From positions 84,869-148,868 of the forward strand of contig LBWK01000001.1 in NCBI GenBank assembly GCA_000993565.1: a stretch of 64,000 nt of DNA, written 5' to 3'. A model generated the notes under the pieces. That model did not search any database. It was not told the origin of the DNA and was given only the letters and a program-made list of their open reading frames with translations. The stretch's first letter is position 1. Every line of letters starts with the position of its first letter. Below are positions 14,036 through 33,926 of the stretch, piece by piece. This DNA comes from a candidate division WS6 bacterium GW2011_GWF2_39_15. GTDB taxonomy: Bacteria > Patescibacteriota > Dojkabacteria > SC72. The translations under genes and the position numbers were made by a program.

Positions 14036-15720
14036 AAAACACATAAGCTTTTCTTATCCTCGACCCTAAATATAAAGTAGTGATTTTTTAGAATAGATTC
14101 GGGTTTTACATCTCCCTTGAAGTATTTGTAACGTAAGCATCTTTGCCATGTTGATAAACTTTTTGAATTTGAAGAGATATCTTCTTTCGGATATACAATG
14201 TAACTCTCTACACCCAACTCGGCCTGTTTGTTTTCTTGGTAAAACCTTTCTTGCTGCCAATCTAAATTACTTCCGTGCAGATATAGATAACCGTTTTTAG
14301 TTCCACCGGTTATTTCGTTGAAATATTCTAAATAGTTTGTGAAAGCTCTTATTACAACCAACAGATGAGCAGTAAGAAGGATAGTTAAAAGCAGTATGAA
14401 GAGCCTGGATTTATATTTTTCGATGAGGATTGAAACCACATAAGCAATTAGTAAACAGAGGAAGGGGTAGATCGGTAATAGATGACGCACGCCTATATTT
14501 ATAGAGCTGGCTAAAGAGAGGAAGGTAAGGACAGTTGGAATTGCTAATAACGGTAGATAATACCCCTTATTTTTCATAAAAAGTTTAAAATTTTTATATA
14601 GGAGAACAAGAGCATAAGTGACTGAGAAAAGTGATAGCAAAATGAAAGGCAGCGTCTCTTTTATGAGAAATGAAACAGGAAAATATAGAGGGTTTCCTCC
14701 ATTAAATGAGTGACCTAACAGATATGTCTTATGTCCGTGAAAGTTGTGCTTAATTACATTATCATAGAACCCCTTTAAATATTCAGGGAAAGGAAACTTT
14801 ACCTTCCTATATATAGTATCGAGAAAAGGCAGATTATCAAATGGCAGTATTCTATCAATAGTGTAAATATGATCATAGGTAGAATATACCTTTCCTGTGT
14901 TTCCATAATCGGCCTCGTAAATAGTTGTGAATTTAAAACCATATGCCGCTGTAAGAAGGAATAGCCATACTGCGATGATACCAATACAATTTATAAGGAC
15001 TCTTTTAGAATTGAGCTTAAAATGATGGGATAAAACCCAACCGTAGATCAAAACCCAAAAGGGAATTAGAAGTGTTGCTGTATATTTTGAAAGCAATGCT
15101 ATCAAAGCAGTAAATGTAAATAGCCAAGGGAAATGCCTCTCATCCTTTTTTGTTTTCCGCAGATCATAATAAAGTGAGAGTGTCGCAATAAATATTGTAA
15201 ACATTGCAGGTACATCTGTTGTTACAAGTGAGGAATGTGCAAGTACAGTAGGGGAAAGGCTCAGCAAAAAGATTGAGAGAAAAGCATATTTAAAACTAAA
15301 TAGCTTTAAAACAAGCTGATACGAAATAAATAACAATAGAGCAGAAAGTGCCGCAGATACCTGACGTGCCTGTACAAGGAAATTTAAGGAGTACGCTTCT
15401 CTACCTCCGTTTATCCATACAAGATTCATAGCGATATCATCTTTCTTAGCGTATTTCCAGTTGTCACTATTTAGATCCTCTCCCTTAAAATCAATATCAT
15501 AGGCAATTGGTATTGATTCAAGTACGTTGAAGAGAATAGGGTGATGTTGATTGATTCTATAATCGCCTGTCCTAATAAGCATAACACCGCGGGCAATATG
15601 ACTCGGTTCATCAGTAGTAAAGGAAAGATCCTTTGAAGAATTAAAGCTCAAAAAATAAAGCAGAAAAGATAATGCTGACGGTATAATAAGAGATATTATT
15701 AATTTCTTCAAAATAGTCAT
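14032..15720 (-). CDS. GT-C fold glycosyltransferase (family 39/83-like, ArnT/PMT-type)
   Basis: About 560 aa and polytopic. A first periplasmic loop carries the FTTDEPSHIARG (DE) motif typical of PMT/ArnT-type GT-C enzymes. Many TM helices follow. The start is 15759 or 15720; the latter avoids overlapping the helicase gene. Confidence 0.55.
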   Translation of the reverse strand: MTILKKLIISLIIPSALSFLLYFLSFNSSKDLSFTTDEPSHIARGVMLIRTGDYRINQHHPILFNVLESIPIAYDIDFKGEDLNSDNWKYAKKDDIAMNLVWINGGREAYSLNFLVQARQVSAALSALLLFISYQLVLKLFSFKYAFLSIFLLSLSPTVLAHSSLVTTDVPAMFTIFIATLSLYYDLRKTKKDERHFPWLFTFTALIALLSKYTATLLIPFWVLIYGWVLSHHFKLNSKRVLINCIGIIAVWLFLLTAAYGFKFTTIYEADYGNTGKVYSTYDHIYTIDRILPFDNLPFLDTIYRKVKFPFPEYLKGFYDNVIKHNFHGHKTYLLGHSFNGGNPLYFPVSFLIKETLPFILLSLFSVTYALVLLYKNFKLFMKNKGYYLPLLAIPTVLTFLSLASSINIGVRHLLPIYPFLCLLIAYVVSILIEKYKSRLFILLLTILLTAHLLVVIRAFTNYLEYFNEITGGTKNGYLYLHGSNLDWQQERFYQENKQAELGVESYIVYPKEDISSNSKSLSTWQRCLRYKYFKGDVKPESILKNHYFIFRVEDKKSLCVF

Positions 15721-17936
15721 ACTTGTAGTATATCTGAAGGGTGATTTTTGGTAAAACATATCGTCAAATGGTGAAGAGCCCTTGTACCTGCCACGTAGAA
15801 CTTCCTTGCTGATTCAAAGGTACTTGGATAGTTATCACTATTCACATCAATCAGAAAAACACTATCAAACTCCAAACCTTTAGCATTTAAAACCGGTGTA
15901 ATAATCACTCCTGCACTGTAGTTTTCCACTCCAATTGGTATTAAATACTGTGAAAGACCACCCTCTTTTTCTAGGTGCTCATATAAACTCTGTGCGGAAA
16001 CCGCATCTTTTGTTATGACGGCAATTGTGTTTCTGCTTTTATCTAATTCTTCCTTTATTTTTTCCGCTAACCTCTTTATATCACCTGATTTTCCTTCGAC
16101 AAGCGGGGAATCAGATTGAAGCACATCTACAGGTTCACCGTGGCGAAGAACGGCCTCAGGCCTTAAGTAACTTTTAGGAAACACCCTATCTATTCGTGTG
16201 GTAACATAATTAATAATTTCGATAGTAGTTCGATAACATTTGTTAAGTTGGTGATATTCATACGAAAGTTCACCATGATTAAGCTTTTTAGTAGTCTCTA
16301 TTAACTCTATCCAGTCATCGATGCAATTAGGTTCTCTAATTGCCTGTGCTAAGTCTCCAGCTAGCATTAAATTTGATTTCTTTGTTGTCAAATACATTGA
16401 GTATATCTGGGAGTAACTGAGGTCTTGGGCCTCATCTGCAATTATATAATCCCTAAGGACATCTGCAGAGCCGTTTAAAAGTAAGTGAAGAATTAGTAAG
16501 GCAGGTAGATCGTCGGCCTCATATGTATAGTAACTCCTAAGCTTTCTGACAATCTTATCTGTCCTCTGCTTTACTGCTGATGGTATAGACATTTTTGAAA
16601 CGATTTTTTTGTAGATCATCATTATATCCAAGCCTTGCTTTAGATAATCCTCAATTTTTTCTGTAATAACATCCCCATACAATTCATTTCGTCTAAGAAA
16701 TGACGCAGTTGTACTACCTTTATACATGAGCTGATTTTTTTCCTTCTGAACAGATAGCTTGAGAGCCTCAACTGGCGTGATATCAGCCGATTTTGCACGA
16801 ATCTCGTAATAGTTTCTATATATTTTCTCACTGTTTGAAAAAGGCAAACCCTCAAGTAATTCATCAATATACTCTGTAAATCCTTCCACAAGCTGTATAA
16901 GGAATTCTTTTGAACCTTTAATCATTTGCGACTCAGGATCGGGTTTGATATTCGCAAGAATATGCTTATTCGACCAATTTAAGACTTTTTTAGCCCAGAA
17001 AAGGTATGTGTTGGTTTCAACTCCATCGATTCCAAGAGAAGGCAATACATCTGAAATATAATCCAAAAATAGTTTGTTTGGTGCAATAATCAAAGTCTTT
17101 TCAGCCTTTATCTGTTTATTATATGTGAAGAAAAGATATGCAAGCCGGTGCAGCACAATTGTCGTTTTACCGCTTCCCGCAACACCTTGTAGAACACTAA
17201 GTTTATCTATTTTATCTCTTATAATTCTATTCTGCTCATTTTGTATTGTTGACACTATATCAGTTAGTTTTTGACCGATCTTTTGATTTAACTGTGAGAG
17301 GAGAAACTCATCAGCTGCCGTATTACCTGTCTTCGCATCATAGATGCTTTTAATTCTGGCTTTTGAGATCTCGAACATCCGCTTCTGCTCAATACTTCCC
17401 ATTTGCTGACCAAGCGGGCTGGTAAACTCAACACCTTCGGTCGGGCCTGAGTTGGTATAGTAAAGATTGGCAATTGGTGCCCTCCAGTCTGTGATTAAAG
17501 AAGAATTGGTCTCACGATCAAAGTAGGCAAACTTTCCTATGTAGGAAGTGATTGAACCTTTAGGAAACTTTTCACTTCTCACTCTGTTAAAGACAACTTT
17601 GCCGAAGTAGGGGATATCTAAAATTTGAAGCTCTCGGTTAATCCGCTTCACATGCTCATTTATCATTTTCATGAGCTGATTATAAATTTTCACAGCCTCC
17701 TTTTTGTCATCTCCAGTTTCATTTTCGATTATGAGGACTTGCTTTTCAAGCTCATTCTCGAGTTCTTTGAGTCTGCTAAAAAGTGATGCAGCACGTTTAC
17801 TTACAATTGATGTCACATTTTGCAAATAGGGATACTCCTGTTTTAAAACATCTGAGGTAATATCTACATCTTTGAAATCTTTAAGCTCATCGAGCTTATC
17901 TATAAGCGGACTGAGATATTTTTTGAATGTGAGCAT
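15717..17936 (-). CDS. Superfamily-1 UvrD-like helicase, HelD (helicase IV)-like
   Basis: 739 aa. Walker A is GVAGSGKTT. The remaining SF1 motifs are IIADEAQD (motif II), LAGD..Q and CYRTT. A long N-terminal coiled-coil/extension is present, as in HelD. Confidence 0.7.
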   Translation of the reverse strand: MLTFKKYLSPLIDKLDELKDFKDVDITSDVLKQEYPYLQNVTSIVSKRAASLFSRLKELENELEKQVLIIENETGDDKKEAVKIYNQLMKMINEHVKRINRELQILDIPYFGKVVFNRVRSEKFPKGSITSYIGKFAYFDRETNSSLITDWRAPIANLYYTNSGPTEGVEFTSPLGQQMGSIEQKRMFEISKARIKSIYDAKTGNTAADEFLLSQLNQKIGQKLTDIVSTIQNEQNRIIRDKIDKLSVLQGVAGSGKTTIVLHRLAYLFFTYNKQIKAEKTLIIAPNKLFLDYISDVLPSLGIDGVETNTYLFWAKKVLNWSNKHILANIKPDPESQMIKGSKEFLIQLVEGFTEYIDELLEGLPFSNSEKIYRNYYEIRAKSADITPVEALKLSVQKEKNQLMYKGSTTASFLRRNELYGDVITEKIEDYLKQGLDIMMIYKKIVSKMSIPSAVKQRTDKIVRKLRSYYTYEADDLPALLILHLLLNGSADVLRDYIIADEAQDLSYSQIYSMYLTTKKSNLMLAGDLAQAIREPNCIDDWIELIETTKKLNHGELSYEYHQLNKCYRTTIEIINYVTTRIDRVFPKSYLRPEAVLRHGEPVDVLQSDSPLVEGKSGDIKRLAEKIKEELDKSRNTIAVITKDAVSAQSLYEHLEKEGGLSQYLIPIGVENYSAGVIITPVLNAKGLEFDSVFLIDVNSDNYPSTFESARKFYVAGTRALHHLTICFTKNHPSDILQV

Positions 17937-23662: not shown

Positions 23663-24454
23663 CTAATTATCGATAAGAGTAAGAAAGTTTCCTTTGAAGA
23701 AGCTTTCAAGTGAACTATTATATAAAGCCTCATCTTTTTTGAGCGACTTATATGATGTGCTTAAGCTAGACTGCAGTGAATTGATCTCAGAGAGAGTAGG
23801 CTTATTGTGAACCTGTCTAATCGTCTCCCAATACTTCGTATAGGAACTCCAATAATTGGAAACCTCACTGAGTTGTGTCGGGAACCTTGATTTAAGCAGA
23901 TTTAGATTAGCCATACACTGATCTATAGCTTTTTTAACGGCTGAATCACTACTTTCCAAGTTAATACGATTAAAGCAGGACCTGATACTATATGTCTCCA
24001 CTATCACTGAATGATAACTAATTAAAGAAGTCCCTAAATCGGCATATACCTGGTGATTTGCAACACGTTGTCTATCTTCACGTAAAGTTTCGGCCGATAT
24101 CCCAGGAATCTTTTTTGAAAGTTCAAAAACTATCTCAGAATGGGAACTTAACTCCTGATTCAACAGGTTAAACTCTTCAATATCCTGTACGGCTACAGAA
24201 GAAGTACTCTTATAGTCATTAATACTGACAGATAACACTTCGTCTCTTAGTGTGTTGAATTTCTTTGAAATATTATTATATGTTTCTACATAAGCATTAC
24301 GAGTGATATTCAGAGTTTCAATATCCTCTTCTTTCTTACCAACTAGATACGATGTTAGTACTAAGGCAAAAGAAACAAGGATAAGTAACCCAATCAAAGC
24401 AGGTAGGAGGAACTTAAACTGCTTAATGAGTTTTACTCTGGTGGTTCTAGCCAT
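23663..24454 (-). CDS. Hypothetical membrane-anchored coiled-coil protein
   Basis: 263 aa. An N-terminal TM (LLPALIGLLILVSFALVLTSYLV) is followed by helical, heptad-like sequence. It is the last gene of the overlapping minus-strand operon. Confidence 0.4.
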   Translation of the reverse strand: MARTTRVKLIKQFKFLLPALIGLLILVSFALVLTSYLVGKKEEDIETLNITRNAYVETYNNISKKFNTLRDEVLSVSINDYKSTSSVAVQDIEEFNLLNQELSSHSEIVFELSKKIPGISAETLREDRQRVANHQVYADLGTSLISYHSVIVETYSIRSCFNRINLESSDSAVKKAIDQCMANLNLLKSRFPTQLSEVSNYWSSYTKYWETIRQVHNKPTLSEINSLQSSLSTSYKSLKKDEALYNSSLESFFKGNFLTLIDN

Positions 24455-24993
24455 TTCTTGAGTTTCTTAACAAAGTTTCTGGCAAGCAAATACAGGCCAA
24501 ATAATCCACCTAATGCAAGCAGGAGTAGAATTAACGACTTAATTATTACTGCTCCGCTGTATCCAGCGGTCTGTGGAACAGTAGTCTTGTCTTCATCAAA
24601 AGTAAGTGTAATCGAAGCAGAAGAAGTGTAATTTGTTTTAAACTCCCAGTCAGTAATATTTCCCGAAATATTGTATGTACCTGAAGTTGAAGGTTTAGCA
24701 TAGGCAGTATAAGAATAGACCTCTCCCTTTTCTACGGGGATAAACTGCGGATGTCTCTCAATTATCTCTATGCCTTCAGGGGCATCCCACGATATCTCCA
24801 CTTTATCAGCGGTTATATTCGACCTAAATTTCACATTAATAGGAACACTTTTTGTCCATGGTGATTGTGTTCCCAAACTTAGTTCTACATTGAAGTAGTC
24901 GCCTGTCGTTTCAGGAACCTCTGCATATACTGGAGAGTGTATAAGAAAGGTCCAAGTAAGAAGTAATGTTAGAAATAAGAAAAGTTTCTTCAT
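24433..24993 (-). CDS. Hypothetical surface protein (signal peptide plus C-terminal TM anchor)
   Basis: 186 aa. The signal peptide MKKLFLFLTLLLTWTFLIHSPVYA is followed by a beta-rich 120-aa domain and a C-terminal helix IIKSLILLLLALGGLFGLYLL with KK-rich stop-transfer. Confidence 0.4.
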   Translation of the reverse strand: MKKLFLFLTLLLTWTFLIHSPVYAEVPETTGDYFNVELSLGTQSPWTKSVPINVKFRSNITADKVEISWDAPEGIEIIERHPQFIPVEKGEVYSYTAYAKPSTSGTYNISGNITDWEFKTNYTSSASITLTFDEDKTTVPQTAGYSGAVIIKSLILLLLALGGLFGLYLLARNFVKKLKKWLEPPE

Positions 24994-25406
24994 CCTAGTA
25001 ACCTTGATATTAATTTATAATACGCCTGGTATCCCTTTTTAACATCTTCACGACTAACCTCAATGTCGTCGTGTACAATACTATTTCTTAGCTTGTGATA
25101 ATACCATATTTCCTCGTAAAGATCTCTTTTAACTTGCTTTCTTATTTTCTTTAAATTTTCACCGCAGGTTAAATTGTTACGATTTCTAATCTGCAACACC
25201 TTACTTAATATGCTATCTAATCTAACAATACTATCACGATTAGCAGAACTTAAATCAAGTTCAATATTTTCCTTAATACTTTTCATCTGTTTATAGATCT
25301 CATTTTTCCTCCTGGAAGATACTTTGTTTGAGCTTTTAAAAACAAATAAGAAAAAGACCAGAATTAAGAATAGGACCAGCCCTGTTATGTATAAGGAGTC
25401 TTGCAT
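24990..25406 (-). CDS. Membrane-anchored HEPN-like (DUF4145-like) protein
   Basis: 138 aa with an N-terminal TM (ITGLVLFLILVFFLFVF). The C-terminal helical domain carries HKLRNSIVHDD, i.e. R-x4-H as in HEPN/DUF4145 (lRNxxaH). Assignment is from the motif only. Confidence 0.3.
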   Translation of the reverse strand: MQDSLYITGLVLFLILVFFLFVFKSSNKVSSRRKNEIYKQMKSIKENIELDLSSANRDSIVRLDSILSKVLQIRNRNNLTCGENLKKIRKQVKRDLYEEIWYYHKLRNSIVHDDIEVSREDVKKGYQAYYKLISRLLG

Positions 25407-27265
25407 TATTTCCTTTTTCTAAATAAATATTTAAATATCATGTATATTATAGTGAATAAGAGCAGAGAAATTAAGAGATTTATGAAGGTATTACCAGTTG
25501 GATTACTAGCAGTCGATTTTAAATTTGCAGCTTTTTTGAATACGGTTCCCTCAAGATCGGCAATTGTTACAACCATTTTATCAGCCTTAGTCAGGCTTGT
25601 GGCAGAAAAGACCAGAGGGATTATCGTCTCCTGATTTGGTAAGACAGTATGTGCACTCCAAAGATTCAAGGGAGAAATGCCTGCTTTATCAACTATTATA
25701 TTCGCTTTCATTATCTGATATATCTTATTACTGCGATTTTTAACAATCAGATCGCCTTTAACTCTATTTCCATCTTGTCCCTTAACTTTAAACTCACTGG
25801 TAATCTCTTCAAAAGGAGCAATCATTGCATCTGCGATCTCAATGTTAAACTCATCCGGAGAAAATACAGACATTTGAGGTTTAATTGATGATTCGTTCCT
25901 GGAAACGAGGGCGATATGGTCTAAGCTAGTTGAAATATAGCGTTTGGGGAAATAGTCTTGTAAGGCAGGGTCTAAAATTATCCATTTACCACTATCCACA
26001 TCCCAGTACTCCCCCCAGCTATGAAAAAAACCTTTCTCTTGATATGAGTTTAGGGGTGAAATATAACCTAGTATCATACGAGTTGGGACTCCCATATATC
26101 TCAGGAGGGCGATTAAGAGATCAGTATAATCATCAGGGGAAGCACCTTCCGAAATTGTTCTCTCGATATTGGAAACACCATGCCTAATGTCTACTTTTAC
26201 GTCCTGTGATGATCCTGAAGAAGGGGTAAGCCTCTCAAGAACATAATCATATATTGAGGAGATAAATAAACTGCGGACATTTGACTCACCTTCAAAGCTC
26301 TCAGGTAATCCTTTCTCCCGTAGATAAAGCTTAACTCTCTTCAGTTCAGTATCCGTTCCAAATGACCAGTAGTTATCTATTTGCAGTAGTTTGGAAAAGT
26401 CTTTTGGTGACCTGTGACTTGCTTCATCAAAATAGATATAACCGCGTACCTTGATTGTGATGCTTTCACCTTGCTTAAGGAGATAGGAGATATTCAGATT
26501 ATCATTACTATCCAGTTCAATATCAAATGGGGAAGGAGTAACTTCAGAGTATAAAACATGCTGACCGTTACCTTCTCTGGGCAAGGTAATTCTATATACA
26601 CTTGTCTGTTCCCCGGAGTTACTTAATTCTTTAGAGATACTAAGGTTATAACCAAAGTCTTTACCAATAACCAGTGAGAGAGCAGGATTAGAAAGCAAGG
26701 ATTTTTCCTTTACTTGCACGACCTTAAAGCCCTTCGCTGTAGTACTGGGTTCAAACTCAACAGATGACCAGACTATATTTCCCCAGTCGGAGGGGTATTC
26801 TACCTTATTAACACCCTGGTCAAAACTTAATATTGGGGGGATTAGAAGCACATAGTTCTCACCGTCAACCTTAACATAATCATCAAGCACTATTGTGACA
26901 TTAATTACCAAGGGACTACCTTTCTGTGCAATCAAATTCGGTAGGCTGAGATAAACTTTACTACCTGACGATTGTTTAGTACTGCTATATTTATAATCCT
27001 TCCCCTCAATGTTAACTTTAAGGCTATCATATGAACTAAATGGGATTGTAAATGTAAAATTTGTAATGACTGAAGGGATATTACTGGATTGGGCTAAGGT
27101 GAATGCATAGTTGATACTTAAATCGCCATCTTTGTTTACGTGGTAAATGGAGGAATTTGTTCTTGTAAGCTCAGCTGCAATTAAAGGCGTTGAAGTTGAA
27201 AGAAGTATTAAAAATCCACTAAATACTAATAGAGTTCTCTTTAAATAACCAATCAAACTTGTCAT
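25406..27265 (-). CDS. Transglutaminase-like domain membrane protein (catalytic Cys position occupied by Ser)
   Basis: 619 aa with an N-terminal signal. The TGase-like core EGASPDDYTDLLIALLRYMGVPTRMILGY ... FFHSWGEYWDVDSGKWIILDP aligns to GxCxxxA..L.RA.GIPAR.V.GY...HaW.E.y...GW...DP, with Ser at the Cys position and His/Asp conserved. A C-terminal TM follows (LLISLLLFTIIYMIF) with an RKRK tail. Confidence 0.55.
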   Translation of the reverse strand: MTSLIGYLKRTLLVFSGFLILLSTSTPLIAAELTRTNSSIYHVNKDGDLSINYAFTLAQSSNIPSVITNFTFTIPFSSYDSLKVNIEGKDYKYSSTKQSSGSKVYLSLPNLIAQKGSPLVINVTIVLDDYVKVDGENYVLLIPPILSFDQGVNKVEYPSDWGNIVWSSVEFEPSTTAKGFKVVQVKEKSLLSNPALSLVIGKDFGYNLSISKELSNSGEQTSVYRITLPREGNGQHVLYSEVTPSPFDIELDSNDNLNISYLLKQGESITIKVRGYIYFDEASHRSPKDFSKLLQIDNYWSFGTDTELKRVKLYLREKGLPESFEGESNVRSLFISSIYDYVLERLTPSSGSSQDVKVDIRHGVSNIERTISEGASPDDYTDLLIALLRYMGVPTRMILGYISPLNSYQEKGFFHSWGEYWDVDSGKWIILDPALQDYFPKRYISTSLDHIALVSRNESSIKPQMSVFSPDEFNIEIADAMIAPFEEITSEFKVKGQDGNRVKGDLIVKNRSNKIYQIMKANIIVDKAGISPLNLWSAHTVLPNQETIIPLVFSATSLTKADKMVVTIADLEGTVFKKAANLKSTASNPTGNTFINLLISLLLFTIIYMIFKYLFRKRK

Positions 27266-27972: not shown

Positions 27973-28278
27973 CTATTCTCTAGAAAAAGCCTTTACCATC
28001 TCATAAGTGATATATCCGAGAATTATAAAGAAGGCAAGAGCTACAAGTGACGTTAGATCAAACTCTACACCAGCGAGAACAAATACATCCTGTGTTATTC
28101 CCCTAAATGGCCTGACAAAATATTCACTGTACTGATATACAAGGTTAACTAAGGAGTTTTTAGCACTGGCATCTATCAACAGCAGGACAAAACGGATTGA
28201 AACAAGCGCCTGTATCAGAAGTATTAACGAGTAAATAAGTTTTGTAAATAATCTTAACATAAATAATAGATATAACAT
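27973..28278 (-). CDS. YggT/Ycf19-family small membrane protein
   Basis: 101 aa with two TM helices. The ..ALVSIRFVLLLID...YFVRPFRGIT..DLTSLVALAFFIIL pattern matches YggT. Confidence 0.5.
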   Translation of the reverse strand: MLYLLFMLRLFTKLIYSLILLIQALVSIRFVLLLIDASAKNSLVNLVYQYSEYFVRPFRGITQDVFVLAGVEFDLTSLVALAFFIILGYITYEMVKAFSRE

Positions 28279-28959
28279 TTAATAAACACTTTCAAGGTTT
28301 CGGACATAATAATTTAGATCAGACATAAATTGCGTTACACCGTTTGCCCAGGCATGAGAGGGATTTTGACCACATGGAGGACAATAGGTTGGTTCAATTT
28401 GAAACGGAGTTAAATCAGTACCATAGCCGGCTGCGAGTCTTCCTGTTACAGTAGAAATACCTTCTTTCCAACTCGAAAAGATGCTGTAAGCTCCTCCAGG
28501 GCCGCCCCGCCAACCCCAACCATTATTAGATCTGTATGGAATAAGATTGCCAAATGCAGATTCGACTCCGGATATTGAAGCTACAAGCCTCCAGTCAAGC
28601 CCCACCTTATCTGCTTCTGAAACAAAAATATCCGCGTAGGTATACAACGGAGAGTAGTGATCAATCAGGAACTGACGCATCGCCAAAACTCTGGGATCAG
28701 AAGTTGTGACAGTTGTTTGACCGGATACTTGTGAAATATCCCCTGAGAGCAAAAAGGACGGATCCGAACTTGTTAAATAGATACTTCGTGTTTCCAAAGC
28801 AGACAGCCTGTTCACCTCCACCAACTTACGATTAAAACCAACCATTTCGCCAATGGTTTGAGCAAACTTTCCGCCAGCTACTAGATGAAAAAGGCTAAAT
28901 AGTATTATAAATCCCAATAGACTCATGCTTTTAGATATAAGACTACGGACATTAGACAT
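28279..28959 (-). CDS. Secreted lysozyme-like (SLT-type) putative peptidoglycan hydrolase, paralog of 19074..19679
   Basis: 226 aa with a signal peptide. ADKVGLDWRLVASISGVESAFGN...NNGWGWRGG has the same ES-containing block and WGWxGG block as the 19074 gene. It is the first gene of the minus-strand operon. Confidence 0.4.
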   Translation of the reverse strand: MSNVRSLISKSMSLLGFIILFSLFHLVAGGKFAQTIGEMVGFNRKLVEVNRLSALETRSIYLTSSDPSFLLSGDISQVSGQTTVTTSDPRVLAMRQFLIDHYSPLYTYADIFVSEADKVGLDWRLVASISGVESAFGNLIPYRSNNGWGWRGGPGGAYSIFSSWKEGISTVTGRLAAGYGTDLTPFQIEPTYCPPCGQNPSHAWANGVTQFMSDLNYYVRNLESVY

Positions 28960-29046: not shown

Positions 29047-32000
29047 ATGTCATTTACTCACCTACATTTACACTCAGAATATTCCTTATTGGACGGTGTT
29101 ATACGTATTCCTGAGCTGATTGCGAAGATTAAGGAGTGCGGCATGAATGCTTGTGCACTTACGGACCACGGCAACATGTACGGTACATTCAAATTCTATA
29201 ATGAGATGAAACATGCTGAGCTCAAACCGATTCTCGGATGTGAGATATACTTAGCCCCACGGACAAGATTTGATAAGGAAGCCGGTACAGATAATAAAAC
29301 CCCGCATCTAACTGTCCTTGCCCAAAACCTAACCGGTTACAAAAATCTTGTGAAGCTCGTATCCTCAGGCTTCATGGAAGGCTTCTATTATCGCCCAAGA
29401 GTAGATTGGGAAATTCTTGAGAAATACTCTGAAGGACTAATAGTTCTTTCTGGATGCTTAAGCGGCCCAGTATCAAAACTTTTCAGAGATGGAAGGGGGA
29501 AGGAGGCTGTAAAAACAGCTCAAAAGTTTAAAGATCTTTTTAAAGACCGATATTTCTTGGAAATTCAAAGGAATGGCATTAAAGAGCAGGACGATTTAAA
29601 TCTGGAGCTAATCAAACTTTCAAAAGAGCTTAATATACCCCTTGTAGCAACATGTGACGCCCACTATGTAAATAAAGAAGACTATAATGTACAGGAAATC
29701 GTATGGGCCATTTCTGACGGTAAAACGCTTGATGACCCGACACGCCGTGTTGCACCAACCAAAGAATACTACTTCAAAAACCAGCAGGAGATGGAGGAGC
29801 TCTTCAAAGATCTTCCAGAAGCTATATCCAATACCCAAAAAATTGTTGATATGGTTGAGGATTTCTCAATCTCATTCGGCAGAGTAGAACCCCATTATCT
29901 GGATCTTCCCGAAGGCGTAACGCCAAAGGATCATCTTCGTGATCTTGTAATGCAGGGGGCACAAAAGAAATATAAAGAGATTACGGATGAAATTCAGACA
30001 AGAATTGACTATGAGCTGGAAATCATTGATGACAAGGGCTATAACAACTATTTCCTTGTAGTATATGATTTCGTTAGATATTGCGTTGAGAACGGCATCA
30101 TGGTTGGAGCCAGAGGTTCGGCAGTAGGTACAGTTGTCGGATACTGCCTTAATATTGCAGGTGTTGATCCGATAACATGGGAGTTGTACTTCGAAAGATT
30201 TCTTAACCCCGGTAGGGAGTCACCTCCGGATATAGACCTGGATATTTCAGATCAGAGACGTCAGGAACTCATTAAATACGCACAGGTGAAGTATGGGGAA
30301 CCCAACGTCCGGCAGATCATTACATTCAGCAAGCTCCAGACCAGGCAGGCAATAAGGGACGTATCAAGAGTTATGGGCATTGATCTTCAGACTGCTGATA
30401 AACTCTCAAAACTTGTCAAGGTCGAATTCGGAAAAACCAAACCAATTGATTATATGATGGAGAACAACCCTGAGTTTGCTGAGATAATAAATTCATCCGA
30501 AAAGCTTCAGCAGATGTCACAGGTGGTGAAAAAAATTGCGGGACTTGCCCGTGGTGTATCAATGCATGCATGTGGAGTCATTGTGGCACCTGAACCCGTT
30601 GACAACTTCATTCCTATACAAAGAGACTCAAAAGATGAAGGTGTTGGAATGGCTCAGTTTGAAATGACAGACTTAGAGTATGTAGGCCTCCTTAAGCTGG
30701 ACTTCCTGGGTTTGAAAAACCTGAACATTATTGATACAGCTGTAAGAAAAATAAAAAGGCACAAGGGAATTGACCTCGATTTAAGCACTATTGATGTCAA
30801 TGATCAAAATATTTATCAAATGCTCAGAGACGGACATACAATGGGAGTTTTCCAACTTGAGGGGGAGGGTATGACAAAAGCTTTGATTACGATCCGTCCA
30901 GAAACCCCTGAAGACCTCTGTTATCTCCTTGCAGCCTATCGTCCTGGGCCAATTGAGTTCATTCCTCAATATGCCGCGGTCAAAAAGGGTGAAAAGCAGC
31001 CTACATACATTATTGACGACCTTGAACCAATTCTTGGAGTTACAAACGGAGTCATCACATATCAAGAGCAGGTAATGAAAATCGCAACGGATATAGCCGG
31101 CTACACACTCTCAGAAGCTGACAATATGAGACGGGCGATGGGTAAGAAAAAGATGGAAATCATGGAAGCCGAAAAGCCCAAATTCATTAAGGGAGGTGTA
31201 GACAAGGGATATGCGGAAGAAAAAATCGCTGAAATATGGGACCTCCTAGTTAAATTTGCAAACTACGGTTTCAATAAATCACATGCAGCAGCCTATGCAA
31301 TGGTCTCATACTATACGGCCTATCTTAAGTACTACTACCCGTTAGAATACATGGCTGCCCTTCTTGAAGCTGATCTTGAAAACTTTAATCGTATTTCTCT
31401 TGATATCCAGGAATGCACCAGGCTTGGGATAGAGGTTGTACACCCAGATATAAACAAGAGCGGAAGCTTTTTTACAGTTGAAGAAGGTGATGTAAAAAGA
31501 ATCCGGTTCGGCCTTGGCGCCATTAAAAATGTCGGAGCCGAAATTGTTAGACAGATAGTAGCAGAGCAAACTCAAAACGGTGAATATCTCAGCCTCGATG
31601 ACTTTGTTTACAGAAATATCCAGCACAAGCTGCAAATGCGCGTCGTTGAATATCTAATTATGGCAGGGGCTATGGATGAGTGGGGAGACAGGGGTGCACT
31701 ACTTAAAATCCTTCCGGGGATATATGAGAGATTCAAAAAACAAAAACAAACCGAGGCTAACGGACAAATAGACTTCTTCAATAACGGAGAGACTCAGGAA
31801 TCTTCGATTGAGTTAATGAAAACACCTGTCCCAACAGATATTCACACACCCATGCACCAGATTCTACAGTGGGAAAAAGAGTTATTAGGATTGTATTTCA
31901 CCAGTCATCCGTTGGATGACCTTCAGGAGTTCTTTGCTCAAAAAGGAGTAATTCCTATAAAAAATTTAATAACGATAAAAGGCGGAAGGCTTGTCATACT

Positions 32001-32451
32001 TGGTGCTTTGATTACGAAAGTACGAAGGATCACAACCAAGAAAGGTGAGAGAATGGCCTTCCTTACCATTGAAGACAAAACATCCTCAATAGATGCTTTA
32101 GTCTTTCCAAGAACATATGAAGAGATGAAAGATATGTTTGAGGCTAATAAACCCATACTAATTGCGGCACGTATCTCAGAGCGGGATGAAGGTAAAAGCG
32201 TTATCCTTGAGAAGGCAAAATATGTTGATCAGGATAAATTTGCATCAGATTTTAAAGGTGTCATCTTTAAAATAACAAAGAAAAACACTAAAAAACAGAT
32301 TGCACAGTTAAAAGAGTATATTAAAACAAATGCAGGCGATACGGCAGTCCGAATACTAATTCAGGAAGGGAAAGATATGAAAACCGTTGAGATTAAAAAT
32401 AAAATTACCCTAGACCAAAAGGGCAGAGAACTAATGAATATATTTTCATAA
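29047..32451 (+). CDS. dnaE: DNA polymerase III alpha subunit
   Basis: 1134 aa. The PHP domain starts MSFTHLHLHSEYSLLDG. The Pol III alpha palm/fingers and an OB-fold C-terminus are present. GGAG Shine-Dalgarno (aaaaggagt) lies 6 nt upstream. Confidence 0.9.
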   Translation: MSFTHLHLHSEYSLLDGVIRIPELIAKIKECGMNACALTDHGNMYGTFKFYNEMKHAELKPILGCEIYLAPRTRFDKEAGTDNKTPHLTVLAQNLTGYKNLVKLVSSGFMEGFYYRPRVDWEILEKYSEGLIVLSGCLSGPVSKLFRDGRGKEAVKTAQKFKDLFKDRYFLEIQRNGIKEQDDLNLELIKLSKELNIPLVATCDAHYVNKEDYNVQEIVWAISDGKTLDDPTRRVAPTKEYYFKNQQEMEELFKDLPEAISNTQKIVDMVEDFSISFGRVEPHYLDLPEGVTPKDHLRDLVMQGAQKKYKEITDEIQTRIDYELEIIDDKGYNNYFLVVYDFVRYCVENGIMVGARGSAVGTVVGYCLNIAGVDPITWELYFERFLNPGRESPPDIDLDISDQRRQELIKYAQVKYGEPNVRQIITFSKLQTRQAIRDVSRVMGIDLQTADKLSKLVKVEFGKTKPIDYMMENNPEFAEIINSSEKLQQMSQVVKKIAGLARGVSMHACGVIVAPEPVDNFIPIQRDSKDEGVGMAQFEMTDLEYVGLLKLDFLGLKNLNIIDTAVRKIKRHKGIDLDLSTIDVNDQNIYQMLRDGHTMGVFQLEGEGMTKALITIRPETPEDLCYLLAAYRPGPIEFIPQYAAVKKGEKQPTYIIDDLEPILGVTNGVITYQEQVMKIATDIAGYTLSEADNMRRAMGKKKMEIMEAEKPKFIKGGVDKGYAEEKIAEIWDLLVKFANYGFNKSHAAAYAMVSYYTAYLKYYYPLEYMAALLEADLENFNRISLDIQECTRLGIEVVHPDINKSGSFFTVEEGDVKRIRFGLGAIKNVGAEIVRQIVAEQTQNGEYLSLDDFVYRNIQHKLQMRVVEYLIMAGAMDEWGDRGALLKILPGIYERFKKQKQTEANGQIDFFNNGETQESSIELMKTPVPTDIHTPMHQILQWEKELLGLYFTSHPLDDLQEFFAQKGVIPIKNLITIKGGRLVILGALITKVRRITTKKGERMAFLTIEDKTSSIDALVFPRTYEEMKDMFEANKPILIAARISERDEGKSVILEKAKYVDQDKFASDFKGVIFKITKKNTKKQIAQLKEYIKTNAGDTAVRILIQEGKDMKTVEIKNKITLDQKGRELMNIFS

Positions 32452-33926
32452 TGAGTGTTAATTTGAAAGAAAAAATTCTTCTATTGCCAGACTCTCCGGG
32501 GGTTTATAAATTCTATAATAAGAACGGAGAAATAATATATATAGGTAAGGCACATAGCCTAAGAAATAGAGTATCTTCATACTTCAAGTCAGACCACAGA
32601 GACCGGCCGAGAATAATATCAATGATCCCTTTGATTGCTGATCTCGAAGTAACGCAAACAGACAATGATATTGAGGCACTTATTTTGGAATCTGCTCTCA
32701 TTAAACAGAATCAGCCGGAATATAATTCAATGCTTAAGGACGACAAGAGTTATGCATGGCTTTATGTAATAACAAAAAGCAGATATCCAACCGTAAAAAT
32801 TGTTCGAACCACTAATAAGAGTGAGTTTATAAATGGTAAGCTATTTGGTCCGTACCCTAGTGGTAAAACAATTAAAAGGGTCTTCAACTATATAAGAAAG
32901 CTCTATCCTTTTTGTACAAGCAAGGATCCATCAAAACCCTGCTTCTATTCCAGAATTGGTCTATGCCCCGGACCCGATGCTTCTGAAGAGGTATACCAAA
33001 ATAATATAAAGGGCATAATAAATCTTCTTAAAGGACGAAATTATAATCAGTTAAGAGTACTTGCTGAGAAAATGCGTACATATGCACAAAACCGGCAGTA
33101 CGAAAGAGCCGCTGAAATTAGGGACCGTATTAATGACCTCAAATATTTAGGTTCGGAGATCAAATTCAATTACTTCGGAACAGAAGAAGAATATGTGGAG
33201 AGCCGGGAAGAAAGAATGAGAAAACAGCTAAATCAGCTACAAAAGATTCTGGGTCTGGAAAAACTAAATAGAGTGGAATGCTATGATATATCAAATATAC
33301 AGGGAAAAATGTCTTACGGCTCAATGGTGGTAAGTATAAACGGGGTTCCAACAAACCGGCTTTATAGAATATTTAAAATAAGATCGATGGATACACCTAA
33401 TGATTATCTGATGCTTGCAGAAGTTTTGTCACGAAGGATCAAGCACATAAATGGTGACAAAGATGAAAGTTTAACTGAAAAGCCAGACCTAATAATTATA
33501 GATGGGGGAAAGGGGCAGCTTTCAGCAGTTCACAAAATTATACCTTCTGGGATAGCGATATTAGGAATTACAAAAGGGAGGAAATATAAAAGAAAAGGAG
33601 GAAAAAAGAAAGATGAGTTTTGGATTTACAATAATGGAACGATAGAACAGCTCAAAATTGGCCCACAGCAAAGTATTTCAATCCTTAGAGATGAGGCACA
33701 CAGGTTTGCCATCATTCATCACCGTAAATTAAGAAAGTTTATGCAAAAGAAATCAATACTGGATGAGATTAAAGGAGTAGGGGCTATAACCAAGAAAAAG
33801 CTAATCAAAGCTTTTGGCAGCGTAGAGCAAATTCGAGGGGTTTCACTCGAAGAAATAGATAAGGTGATACATAATAAGAAGATATCAGAAGCGATCAACT
33901 CCGCTCTTAAAAGGTTTAAAGTTTGA
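32451..33926 (+). CDS. uvrC: Excinuclease ABC subunit C (compact form)
   Basis: 491 aa. The GIY-YIG domain is LPDSPGVYKFYNKNGEIIYIGKAHSLRNRVSSYF. A UVR-like region (YERAAEIRDRINDL) is present. The C-terminal HhH is ILDEIKGVGAITKKKLIKAFGS. The start overlaps the dnaE stop. Confidence 0.85.
   Translation: MSVNLKEKILLLPDSPGVYKFYNKNGEIIYIGKAHSLRNRVSSYFKSDHRDRPRIISMIPLIADLEVTQTDNDIEALILESALIKQNQPEYNSMLKDDKSYAWLYVITKSRYPTVKIVRTTNKSEFINGKLFGPYPSGKTIKRVFNYIRKLYPFCTSKDPSKPCFYSRIGLCPGPDASEEVYQNNIKGIINLLKGRNYNQLRVLAEKMRTYAQNRQYERAAEIRDRINDLKYLGSEIKFNYFGTEEEYVESREERMRKQLNQLQKILGLEKLNRVECYDISNIQGKMSYGSMVVSINGVPTNRLYRIFKIRSMDTPNDYLMLAEVLSRRIKHINGDKDESLTEKPDLIIIDGGKGQLSAVHKIIPSGIAILGITKGRKYKRKGGKKKDEFWIYNNGTIEQLKIGPQQSISILRDEAHRFAIIHHRKLRKFMQKKSILDEIKGVGAITKKKLIKAFGSVEQIRGVSLEEIDKVIHNKKISEAINSALKRFKV

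What the first reader, a model, noticed from the sequence alone, without database searches (positions are those of the whole stretch)
25406..27265. Transglutaminase-like domain with Cys-to-Ser substitution at the catalytic position but intact His/Asp
The TGase-like core aligns as EGA-S-PDDYTDLLIALLRYMGVPTRMILGY ... FFHSWGEYWDVDSGKWIILDP. The canonical GxC nucleophile is replaced by GAS. The downstream His (HSW) and Asp (LDP) are retained. The protein is therefore either a pseudo-enzyme (binding module) or a Ser-His-Asp variant of the papain-like fold. It carries a roughly 330-aa N-terminal beta-rich ectodomain and a C-terminal TM anchor.
Basis: seen in the sequence. Interest (0 to 1): 0.5.

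Follow-up and report, generated by a model that had tools for sequence, protein, structure and literature searches.

The report
Dead transglutaminase-like surface protein (Cys→Pro)
This is a membrane-anchored surface protein of a candidate-phylum (WS6/Dojkabacteria) bacterium whose transglutaminase-like domain has lost its catalytic cysteine to a proline, not a serine, so it is most likely a non-catalytic binding module, which is a well-known fate for this fold.

The parts
25406..27265 (-). Whole ORF, 619 aa, transglutaminase-like membrane-anchored ectoprotein (UT34_C0001G0114 of candidate division WS6 bacterium GW2011_GWF2_39_15)
   Evidence: no Cys in the whole protein
27173..27265 (-). Residues 1-31: N-terminal hydrophobic segment with K9/R10 before it and an ...LIAA|E site after it. 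It is a probable Sec signal peptide or N-terminal anchor (cleavage is inferred).
   Evidence: helix 4-22 in the model; hydrophobic N- and C-terminal segments with positive flanks across the family
26429..27169 (-). Residues 33-279: N-terminal all-beta domain(s)
25826..26398 (-). Residues 290-480: helical sub-domain plus transglutaminase-like (papain-fold) core
26135..26137 (-). Pro377 codon: the position homologous to the catalytic Cys (first residue of helix 377-390)
26138..26140 (-). It precedes the helix (N-cap position) and is not conserved.
26021..26023 (-). His415 codon (triad His, in strand 413-422)
   Evidence: H in 147/154 family members
25970..25972 (-). Asp432 codon (triad Asp, after strand 427-431)
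   Evidence: D in 151/154 family members
25514..25804 (-). Residues 488-584: C-terminal beta sandwich with an N-x-G-N motif (N510, G512, N513)
   Evidence: model; conservation
25412..25498 (-). Residues 590-618: C-terminal transmembrane helix followed by KYLFRKRK (positive-inside, so the bulk of the protein is outside the cell)
24990..25406 (-). p138: co-transcribed partner with an N-terminal TM helix and a helical domain carrying an invariant HK[LM]RNx[IL]VH[ED] motif (Rx4H, HEPN-like). Its start codon overlaps the TGase-like gene's stop codon by one base.
24433..24993 (-). p186: co-transcribed partner with a signal peptide, a beta-rich part and a C-terminal TM helix
   Evidence: (weak BatD/MBG similarity only)
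23663..24454 (-). p263: co-transcribed partner with an N-terminal TM helix and a long helical part
   Evidence: detectable orthologues only in L001-L003; ORFs of similar size occupy the same position in L013 and L014
27219..27950 (-). Upstream cupin-type glucose-6-phosphate isomerase-like gene. It overlaps the start of the TGase-like ORF by 47 nt, and the same overlap is seen in the orthologous loci.
27973..28959 (-). YggT-family membrane protein (27973-28278) and p226 (28279-28959), the first genes of the conserved same-strand cluster

Best explanation
The gene encodes a cell-surface pseudo-enzyme. The protein is exported and held in the membrane by a C-terminal TM helix. Its ectodomain consists of an N-terminal beta domain, a transglutaminase-like (papain-fold) core and a C-terminal beta sandwich. 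The ancestor of the family was a Cys-His-Asp enzyme (protease, amidase or transglutaminase), and one large clade still has that triad. In the lineage leading to the Dojkabacteria the nucleophilic Cys was lost. That position now drifts and is Pro in this protein, so no acyl-enzyme intermediate can form. The fold, the His-Asp pair and the surrounding core (W417, G400, D382, R389, R396, W428, P433) remain under selection. The domain therefore most likely still binds the former substrate or a similar ligand on the cell surface without modifying it. It probably acts as a binding or scaffolding subunit together with the small membrane proteins encoded directly downstream (p138, p186, p263). Shown: the fold, the register of the Cys column, the absence of any Cys, the clade-wide loss with retention of His and Asp, relaxed constraint in the core, and the conserved gene cluster. 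Inferred: the topology (positive-inside rule), ligand binding without catalysis, and physical association with the partner proteins.
Against: There are no biochemical data. The model coordinates could not be read, so the geometry around S376, H415 and D432 was not measured. In the Cys-less clade the residue before the lost Cys is Ser or Thr in 47/68 members, whereas it is I/V/L in the Cys clade. This could in principle reflect a recruited hydroxyl nucleophile rather than helix capping. The strong retention of His and Asp is also what an alternative catalytic mechanism would predict. The clade comparison rests on an NJ tree and on 50 %-identity cluster representatives, not on a full phylogeny. 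Only a few representatives carry taxon names: five Dojkabacteria for the Cys-less clade and one Shapirobacteria for the Cys clade.
Confidence: 0.75

Rival explanations
1. Ser-His-Asp variant: Ser376, one residue before the old Cys position, has taken over as nucleophile and the domain is still a hydrolase or acyl-transferase.
For: His415 and Asp432 are retained. The column of S376 is Ser or Thr in 47/68 members of the Cys-less clade but hydrophobic in the Cys clade. Papain-fold families with Ser in place of Cys are described, and their activity is discussed as an open question (PMC10318531).
Against: Ser376 is not at the nucleophile column. In the nearest relatives it is Y, N, N, V, V, and 21/68 clade members have I, N, V, D, Y, A or M, which is far from the 77/77 conservation of the real nucleophile. 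S, T, N and D together make up 54/68, which is the classical helix N-cap preference, and the residue immediately precedes helix 377-390 in the model. The core as a whole is less constrained than in the Cys clade.
Confidence: 0.07
2. Cys-independent catalysis: His415/Asp432 activate water, or a nucleophile supplied by a partner protein or by the substrate, so the domain remains an enzyme with a different chemistry.
For: His and Asp are kept in >90 % of the Cys-less clade over deep divergence (22-32 % pairwise identity). D379 and D382 next to the lost Cys are conserved. New partner proteins appear together with the loss.
Against: No new conserved residue appears in the core of the Cys-less clade; the only positions conserved specifically in that clade are G512/N513 in the C-terminal beta domain. 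The ectodomain-facing partners have no conserved Cys: p186 has none, and the single Cys of p138 is not conserved and lies on the predicted cytoplasmic side. Retention of His and Asp without catalysis has a documented precedent in Cyk3p.
Confidence: 0.08
3. A decaying or functionless gene: loss of the nucleophile marks a relic that is drifting towards loss.
For: The nucleophile is lost, constraint in the core is relaxed, and the protein is less conserved than its neighbours (44-47 % identity against 55-75 % for p138, p186, p226 and the GPI-like protein in L002/L003).
Against: Full-length intact ORFs are seen in about 68 cluster representatives of the clade. There are 26 positions >=85 % conserved in both clades, including His, Asp and the structural core. 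Both termini are conserved, and gene order is fixed with overlapping start/stop codons.
Confidence: 0.04

Closest known systems
Fungal Cyk3p (transglutaminase-like domain lacking the active-site Cys)
   Same: It has the same pattern in the triad: Cys absent, His and Asp retained. In Cyk3p both are needed for function although catalysis is impossible. The proposed role is in cell-wall or extracellular-matrix remodelling (PMC3386208).
   Different: Cyk3p is a eukaryotic cytoplasmic protein with an SH3 domain. It has no beta-sandwich domains or TM anchor and shows no detectable specific sequence relationship. The residue at the Cys column was not compared.
Erythrocyte band 4.2 (EPB42) and Rad4/XPC: classical inactive TGase-fold proteins
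   Different: Band 4.2 has also lost the His. In the HMMER alignment Rad4 has no His at the His column but keeps the Asp of VDP. Both are intracellular eukaryotic proteins. The shared Pro is most simply convergence at a helix N-terminus.
TgpA of Pseudomonas aeruginosa (PDB 6g49/6g4h)
   Same: It is the best sequence match among solved structures (family profile E 1.3e-12). It is a membrane protein with an extracytoplasmic TGase domain, and its motifs R..GIPAR.V.GY, H.W.EYW and W..VDP are shared.
   Different: TgpA has the complete Cys-His-Asp triad, and its periplasmic domain was assayed for transglutaminase activity (PMC3507681). It has a polytopic membrane architecture and different flanking domains.
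Cytophaga hutchinsonii TGase-like putative cysteine protease (PDB 3isr) and Parabacteroides BDI_1141 (PDB 3kd4)
   Different: 3isr carries the Cys (GVCRDF in 3isr); the triad of 3kd4 was not checked. Both are soluble proteins of unknown substrate, with only 10-18 % identity.
The Cys-retaining sister clade of the same family (e.g. Shapirobacteria MDD5481883.1 = P0088)
   Same: It has the same length and domain order, including both hydrophobic termini. hhalign gives probability 100 % and E 4.5e-85 over 535 columns.
   Different: It has Cys in 77/77 members, usually as the only Cys of the ectodomain, and a more constrained core. It has no p138 or p186 neighbours. It is usually located between uvrA and uvrC.

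Membership tests
Transglutaminase-like superfamily (Pfam PF01841 Transglut_core; papain-like fold) | Sequence match to the family model above its curated threshold | tested here: met
   40.2 bits against a gathering score of 23, residues 335-433
Transglutaminase-like superfamily (Pfam PF01841 Transglut_core; papain-like fold) | Alpha+beta papain-like core: a helix carrying the nucleophile position at its N-terminus, packed against a beta sheet carrying His and Asp | tested here: met
Catalytically competent transglutaminase / TGase-like cysteine protease | Nucleophilic Cys at the N-terminus of the core helix | tested here: not met
   Pro377 occupies the column; the protein contains no Cys
Catalytically competent transglutaminase / TGase-like cysteine protease | Triad His and Asp | tested here: met
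   H415 and D432 are present and conserved (147/154 and 151/154)
Serine-based papain-fold variants (Ser in place of the catalytic Cys) | A conserved Ser at the nucleophile column | tested here: not met
   The column holds Pro here and Ser in only 9/68 members of the clade. The neighbouring S376 is Y/N/N/V in the closest relatives.
Serine-based papain-fold variants (Ser in place of the catalytic Cys) | Ser hydroxyl positioned to be activated by the His | not testable with these tools
Inactive TGase-like pseudo-enzymes (Cyk3p / band 4.2 / Rad4-XPC kind) | TGase fold retained, nucleophile absent across orthologues, and the protein still under purifying selection | tested here: met
Inactive TGase-like pseudo-enzymes (Cyk3p / band 4.2 / Rad4-XPC kind) | Demonstrated lack of enzymatic activity together with a non-catalytic function | not testable with these tools
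   This requires biochemistry or genetics

The most novel reading that the evidence does not exclude
Loss of the nucleophile in the Dojkabacteria lineage coincided with recruitment of three small membrane proteins, one of which (p138) carries an invariant Rx4H (HEPN-like) motif on the predicted cytoplasmic side of the membrane. On this reading the dead TGase-like ectodomain would be the ligand-sensing head of a trans-membrane module that couples recognition of a surface ligand (host-cell, phage or cell-wall peptide) to a cytoplasmic effector. This would be a pseudo-enzyme turned receptor in an episymbiotic CPR bacterium.
Probability: 0.08. Interest if true: 0.6.

Novelty: new member of a known kind. 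Interest (0 to 1): 0.25.

Why it matters
Catalytically dead members of the transglutaminase/papain fold are well documented in eukaryotes, for example band 4.2, Cyk3p, Rad4/XPC and FBXO21. This case adds a bacterial, clade-wide example in the Candidate Phyla Radiation, with an active-looking sister clade for direct comparison. That pairing gives a clean natural experiment on what a TGase-like cleft does once its nucleophile is gone, and on why His and Asp are kept. Practically, it corrects an annotation trap: the Ser next to the lost Cys is not a substitute nucleophile. It also flags an abundant and uncharacterised family of CPR surface proteins. It does not overturn any expectation.

Tried and rejected
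- The word-indexed homologue searches found only the query and three orthologues. The third search, with the domain-only alignment, found nothing, not even the query.
- The afdb50 fold library was not available.
With the closer alignment it returned only 3 loci.
- PADLOC, PHROGs and NCBIfam gave nothing significant for the protein or its partners. p226 has no match in PDB or Pfam, so my guess of a lytic-transglycosylase-like GVESAFG motif stays untested.
- The HEPN idea for p138 gave only sub-threshold hits, each in a single member (DUF4145 E 0.078, HepT-like 0.14, HEPN_Swt1 0.15), and nothing in PDB.
- My first clade-specific conservation table contained artefacts. Columns 62, 306, 314, 315 and 563-565 were mostly gaps in the Cys clade (seen). 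It was recomputed with an occupancy filter, and only that version is used.
- A displaced Cys nucleophile is rejected because there is no Cys.
- A functional link to nucleotide excision repair, prompted by the uvrA-TGL-uvrC order and the Rad4 resemblance, is considered unlikely. Both termini are hydrophobic with positive-inside flanks, which places the domain outside the cell.

Full report
**1. What is in the sequence**

It is identical to a hypothetical protein (UT34_C0001G0114) of candidate division WS6 bacterium GW2011_GWF2_39_15. That organism belongs to Candidatus Dojkabacteria, a Candidate Phyla Radiation lineage. Pfam Transglut_core (PF01841) matches residues 335-433 at 40.2 bits, above the gathering score of 23. 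The quoted motifs are present (GASP at 374-377, H415, D432). The protein contains no cysteine at all. Its orthologues have none either, except one in the N-terminal hydrophobic segment of two of them. A displaced Cys nucleophile is therefore impossible.

**2. Register of the catalytic position**

- HMMER aligns the orthologue profile to the Cytophaga TGase-like protease 3isr without gaps, with ...AGVCRDFAHLGIALCR over ...EGASPDDYTDLLIALLR. This puts the Cys on Pro377.
- In a MAFFT alignment of 154 family members, the column of P377 reads C80 P27 A14 V10 S9 L3 Q3. The column of S376 reads I40 S37 V24 T21 L12, which is the variable x of A-x-C.
- The Cys-less and Cys-bearing halves of the family were aligned separately and compared with hhalign. 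The result was probability 100 %, E 4.5e-85, 535 columns, with GASPDDYTD over NVICQEFTD.
- The family profile places its Cys column on the Cys of the triad motif of P. aeruginosa TgpA (6g49, GFCAHY, E 1.3e-12) and of 3isr. The periplasmic domain of TgpA was assayed for transglutaminase activity (PMC3507681).

The substitution is therefore Cys to Pro. Ser376 is the preceding residue.

**3. Structure**

With only four sequences, AlphaFold gave a poor core. With a 132-sequence family alignment it gave mean pLDDT 92.2 and pTM 0.86. The domains are:

| Residues | Feature |
|---|---|
| 4-22 | N-terminal hydrophobic helix |
| 33-279 | All-beta domain |
| 290-372 | Helical sub-domain |
| 373-480 | TGase core |
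| 488-584 | Beta sandwich |
| 590-618 | TM helix |

The core helix 377-390 starts at P377. H415 lies in strand 413-422, and D432 follows strand 427-431.

Hydrophobic termini with positive flanks occur in 86-96 % of family members. By the positive-inside rule this puts the bulk of the protein outside the cell, which is an inference. The model coordinates could not be read, so the triad geometry was not measured.

**4. The family and the fate of the nucleophile**

An exhaustive HMMER search found 1027 cluster representatives at E<=1e-3 and 637 at E<=1e-10. Most are about 600 aa and match end to end. The top 153 split into two clades:

| Feature | Cys-bearing clade (n=77) | Cys-less clade (n=68) |
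|---|---|---|
| Nucleophile column | Cys 77/77 | P24 A13 V10 S9 L3 Q3 D2 T I G Y |
| His / Asp | conserved | His 62/68, Asp 67/68 |
| Cys in the ectodomain | exactly one in 62/77 | none in 41/68 |
| Named members | Shapirobacteria (one) | Dojkabacteria (five) |

The Cys clade has the motif A-x-C-x-E-[FY]-T-D ... H-x-W-P-E-Y-W-D ... V-D-P-T. The Cys-less clade contains the query.

On an NJ tree about 4 Cys/non-Cys changes suffice, but 34 changes of residue identity are needed. This indicates one main loss followed by drift.

The column of S376 in the Cys-less clade is S34 T13 I7 N5 V4 D2 Y A M. In the nearest relatives it is Y, N, N, V, V. S, T, N and D are the classical helix N-cap residues (established knowledge), and the residue immediately precedes the helix. 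I therefore read the Ser/Thr preference as capping of a helix that has lost its Cys, not as a new nucleophile. No other column outside the N-terminal beta domain reaches 70 % Ser/Thr/Cys in the Cys-less clade.

**5. Constraint**

Only columns occupied in at least 80 % of both clades were used.

| Domain | Measure | Cys clade | Cys-less clade |
|---|---|---|---|
| TGase core | mean pairwise identity | 0.48 | 0.32 |
| TGase core | entropy | 1.67 | 2.33 |
| C-terminal beta domain (control) | mean pairwise identity | 0.16 | 0.19 |
| C-terminal beta domain (control) | entropy | 3.10 | 2.96 |

The C-terminal beta domain is equally diverged in both clades.

Seventeen positions are >=85 % conserved in the Cys clade but <50 % in the Cys-less clade. 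Eleven of them lie in the core or its helical sub-domain. Only two positions show the reverse pattern (G512 and N513 in the beta sandwich). Twenty-six positions are conserved in both clades, including D382, R389, P394, R396, G400, H415, W417, W428, D432 and P433.

The core is thus relaxed but remains the most conserved part of the protein. That is the signature of a pseudo-enzyme that retains a function. An earlier version of this table contained gap-column artefacts (detected) and is not used.

**6. Gene neighbourhood**

In the window the gene lies in a same-strand run with overlapping or abutting ORFs: p226, YggT, cupin-type GPI-like, TGase-like, p138, p186, p263. The run is divergent from dnaE-uvrC.

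The same order holds in all nine Cys-less loci sampled, down to 31 % identity of the TGase-like protein (L001-L007, L013, L014; L001 and L002 are two assemblies of one protein). p138 was not detected in L006, and p263 is recognisable only in the closest loci.

None of the partners was detected in the five Cys-bearing loci searched by sequence (L008-L012). The called genes around two further Cys-bearing members, L015 and L016, are also different. In four of the seven Cys-bearing loci the gene sits directly upstream of uvrC (L008/L009, L010, L015). In L011 one gene intervenes. uvrA lies upstream in L008-L011. The other two loci have a different context.

The loss of Cys therefore correlates with acquisition of dedicated small membrane-protein neighbours. 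This fits a shift from enzyme to subunit of a membrane complex, but that is an inference from correlation only.

**7. Comparison with what is known**

Inactive TGase-fold proteins are well documented. Band 4.2 lacks Cys and His. Rad4/XPC and FBXO21 are scaffolds (PMC10318531; PMC3386208).

The closest analogue in pattern is fungal Cyk3p, where Cys is lost and His and Asp are retained. [quoted passage not shown] Rad4 also has Pro at the Cys column, probably by convergence.

The protein is a member of the TGase-like superfamily by sequence and by fold. It fails the defining feature of an active member (the Cys) and of a serine variant (a conserved Ser at that column).

**8. Verdict**

The protein is a surface-anchored pseudo-transglutaminase (confidence about 0.75). 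It is not a Ser-His-Asp enzyme (about 0.07). This is a new bacterial example of a known kind and of modest interest.

The most novel reading not excluded is that the dead ectodomain serves as the sensor of a trans-membrane module together with p138. Across seven orthologues p138 carries an invariant HK[LM]RNx[IL]VH[ED] (Rx4H, HEPN-like) motif on the predicted cytoplasmic side. Support from profile searches is sub-threshold only.

Noticed in passing
L008 4083-10208, L009 461-6586, L010 3071-9130, L011 3218-10253, L015 1989-5154; window 29047-33926: In the Cys-bearing clade the family gene usually sits between uvrA and uvrC, in the order lexA-uvrB-uvrA-TGL-uvrC. The ORFs overlap in L010, and one gene intervenes in L011. 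In the window and in other Dojkabacteria, uvrC (with dnaE) is still the divergent neighbour. This may be conserved CPR gene order or co-regulation with the SOS/NER genes. The protein itself is predicted to be extracytoplasmic.
   Followed up: partly
Family members P0058, P0102, P0153 (not in the window): These three representatives cluster together next to the Cys clade. They keep most of its signature residues (G114, G135, Q204, P372, G457, and mostly F384, L414, W435, T438, F444, D447) but have Ser exactly at the true nucleophile column.
   Followed up: partly
window 24990-25406 (-): The 138-aa downstream protein has an N-terminal TM helix followed by a helical domain. Across seven orthologues it has invariant R57-D58, R62, D64, G82-E83, W101 and an HK[LM]RNx[IL]VH[ED] motif (Rx4H, as in HEPN domains). 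Only sub-threshold hits were found, each in a single member (DUF4145 E 0.078, HepT-like 0.14, HEPN_Swt1 0.15).
   Followed up: partly
window 27219-27265 (-): The cupin-type GPI-like ORF overlaps the start of the TGase-like ORF by 47 nt. The same 47-nt overlap is present in the orthologous loci L001-L003 and L014, and the N-terminus MxxLxGYLK is conserved, so the overlap seems real.
   Followed up: partly
window 28279-28959 (-): The 226-aa membrane-anchored protein at the head of the cluster has no Pfam or PDB match but is well conserved (52-68 % identity in orthologous loci). It contains a GVESAFG motif that, from memory, resembles the catalytic-Glu motif of lytic transglycosylases. A paralogue lies in L003 at 15509-16114.
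   Followed up: no
L015 5639-8877: Downstream of TGL-uvrC-holin-like in this Cys-clade locus lies a 7TM_transglut, ATP-grasp (ATPgrasp_ST) and MATCAP gene trio. This is a separate transglutaminase-associated system.
   Followed up: no
L003, L004 record titles: Two contigs carrying close orthologues (44 % and 32 % identity, with the same synteny as the Dojkabacteria loci) are labelled 'uncultured Candidatus Saccharibacteria bacterium' in their ENA-derived records. This may be a taxonomic mislabel.
   Followed up: no
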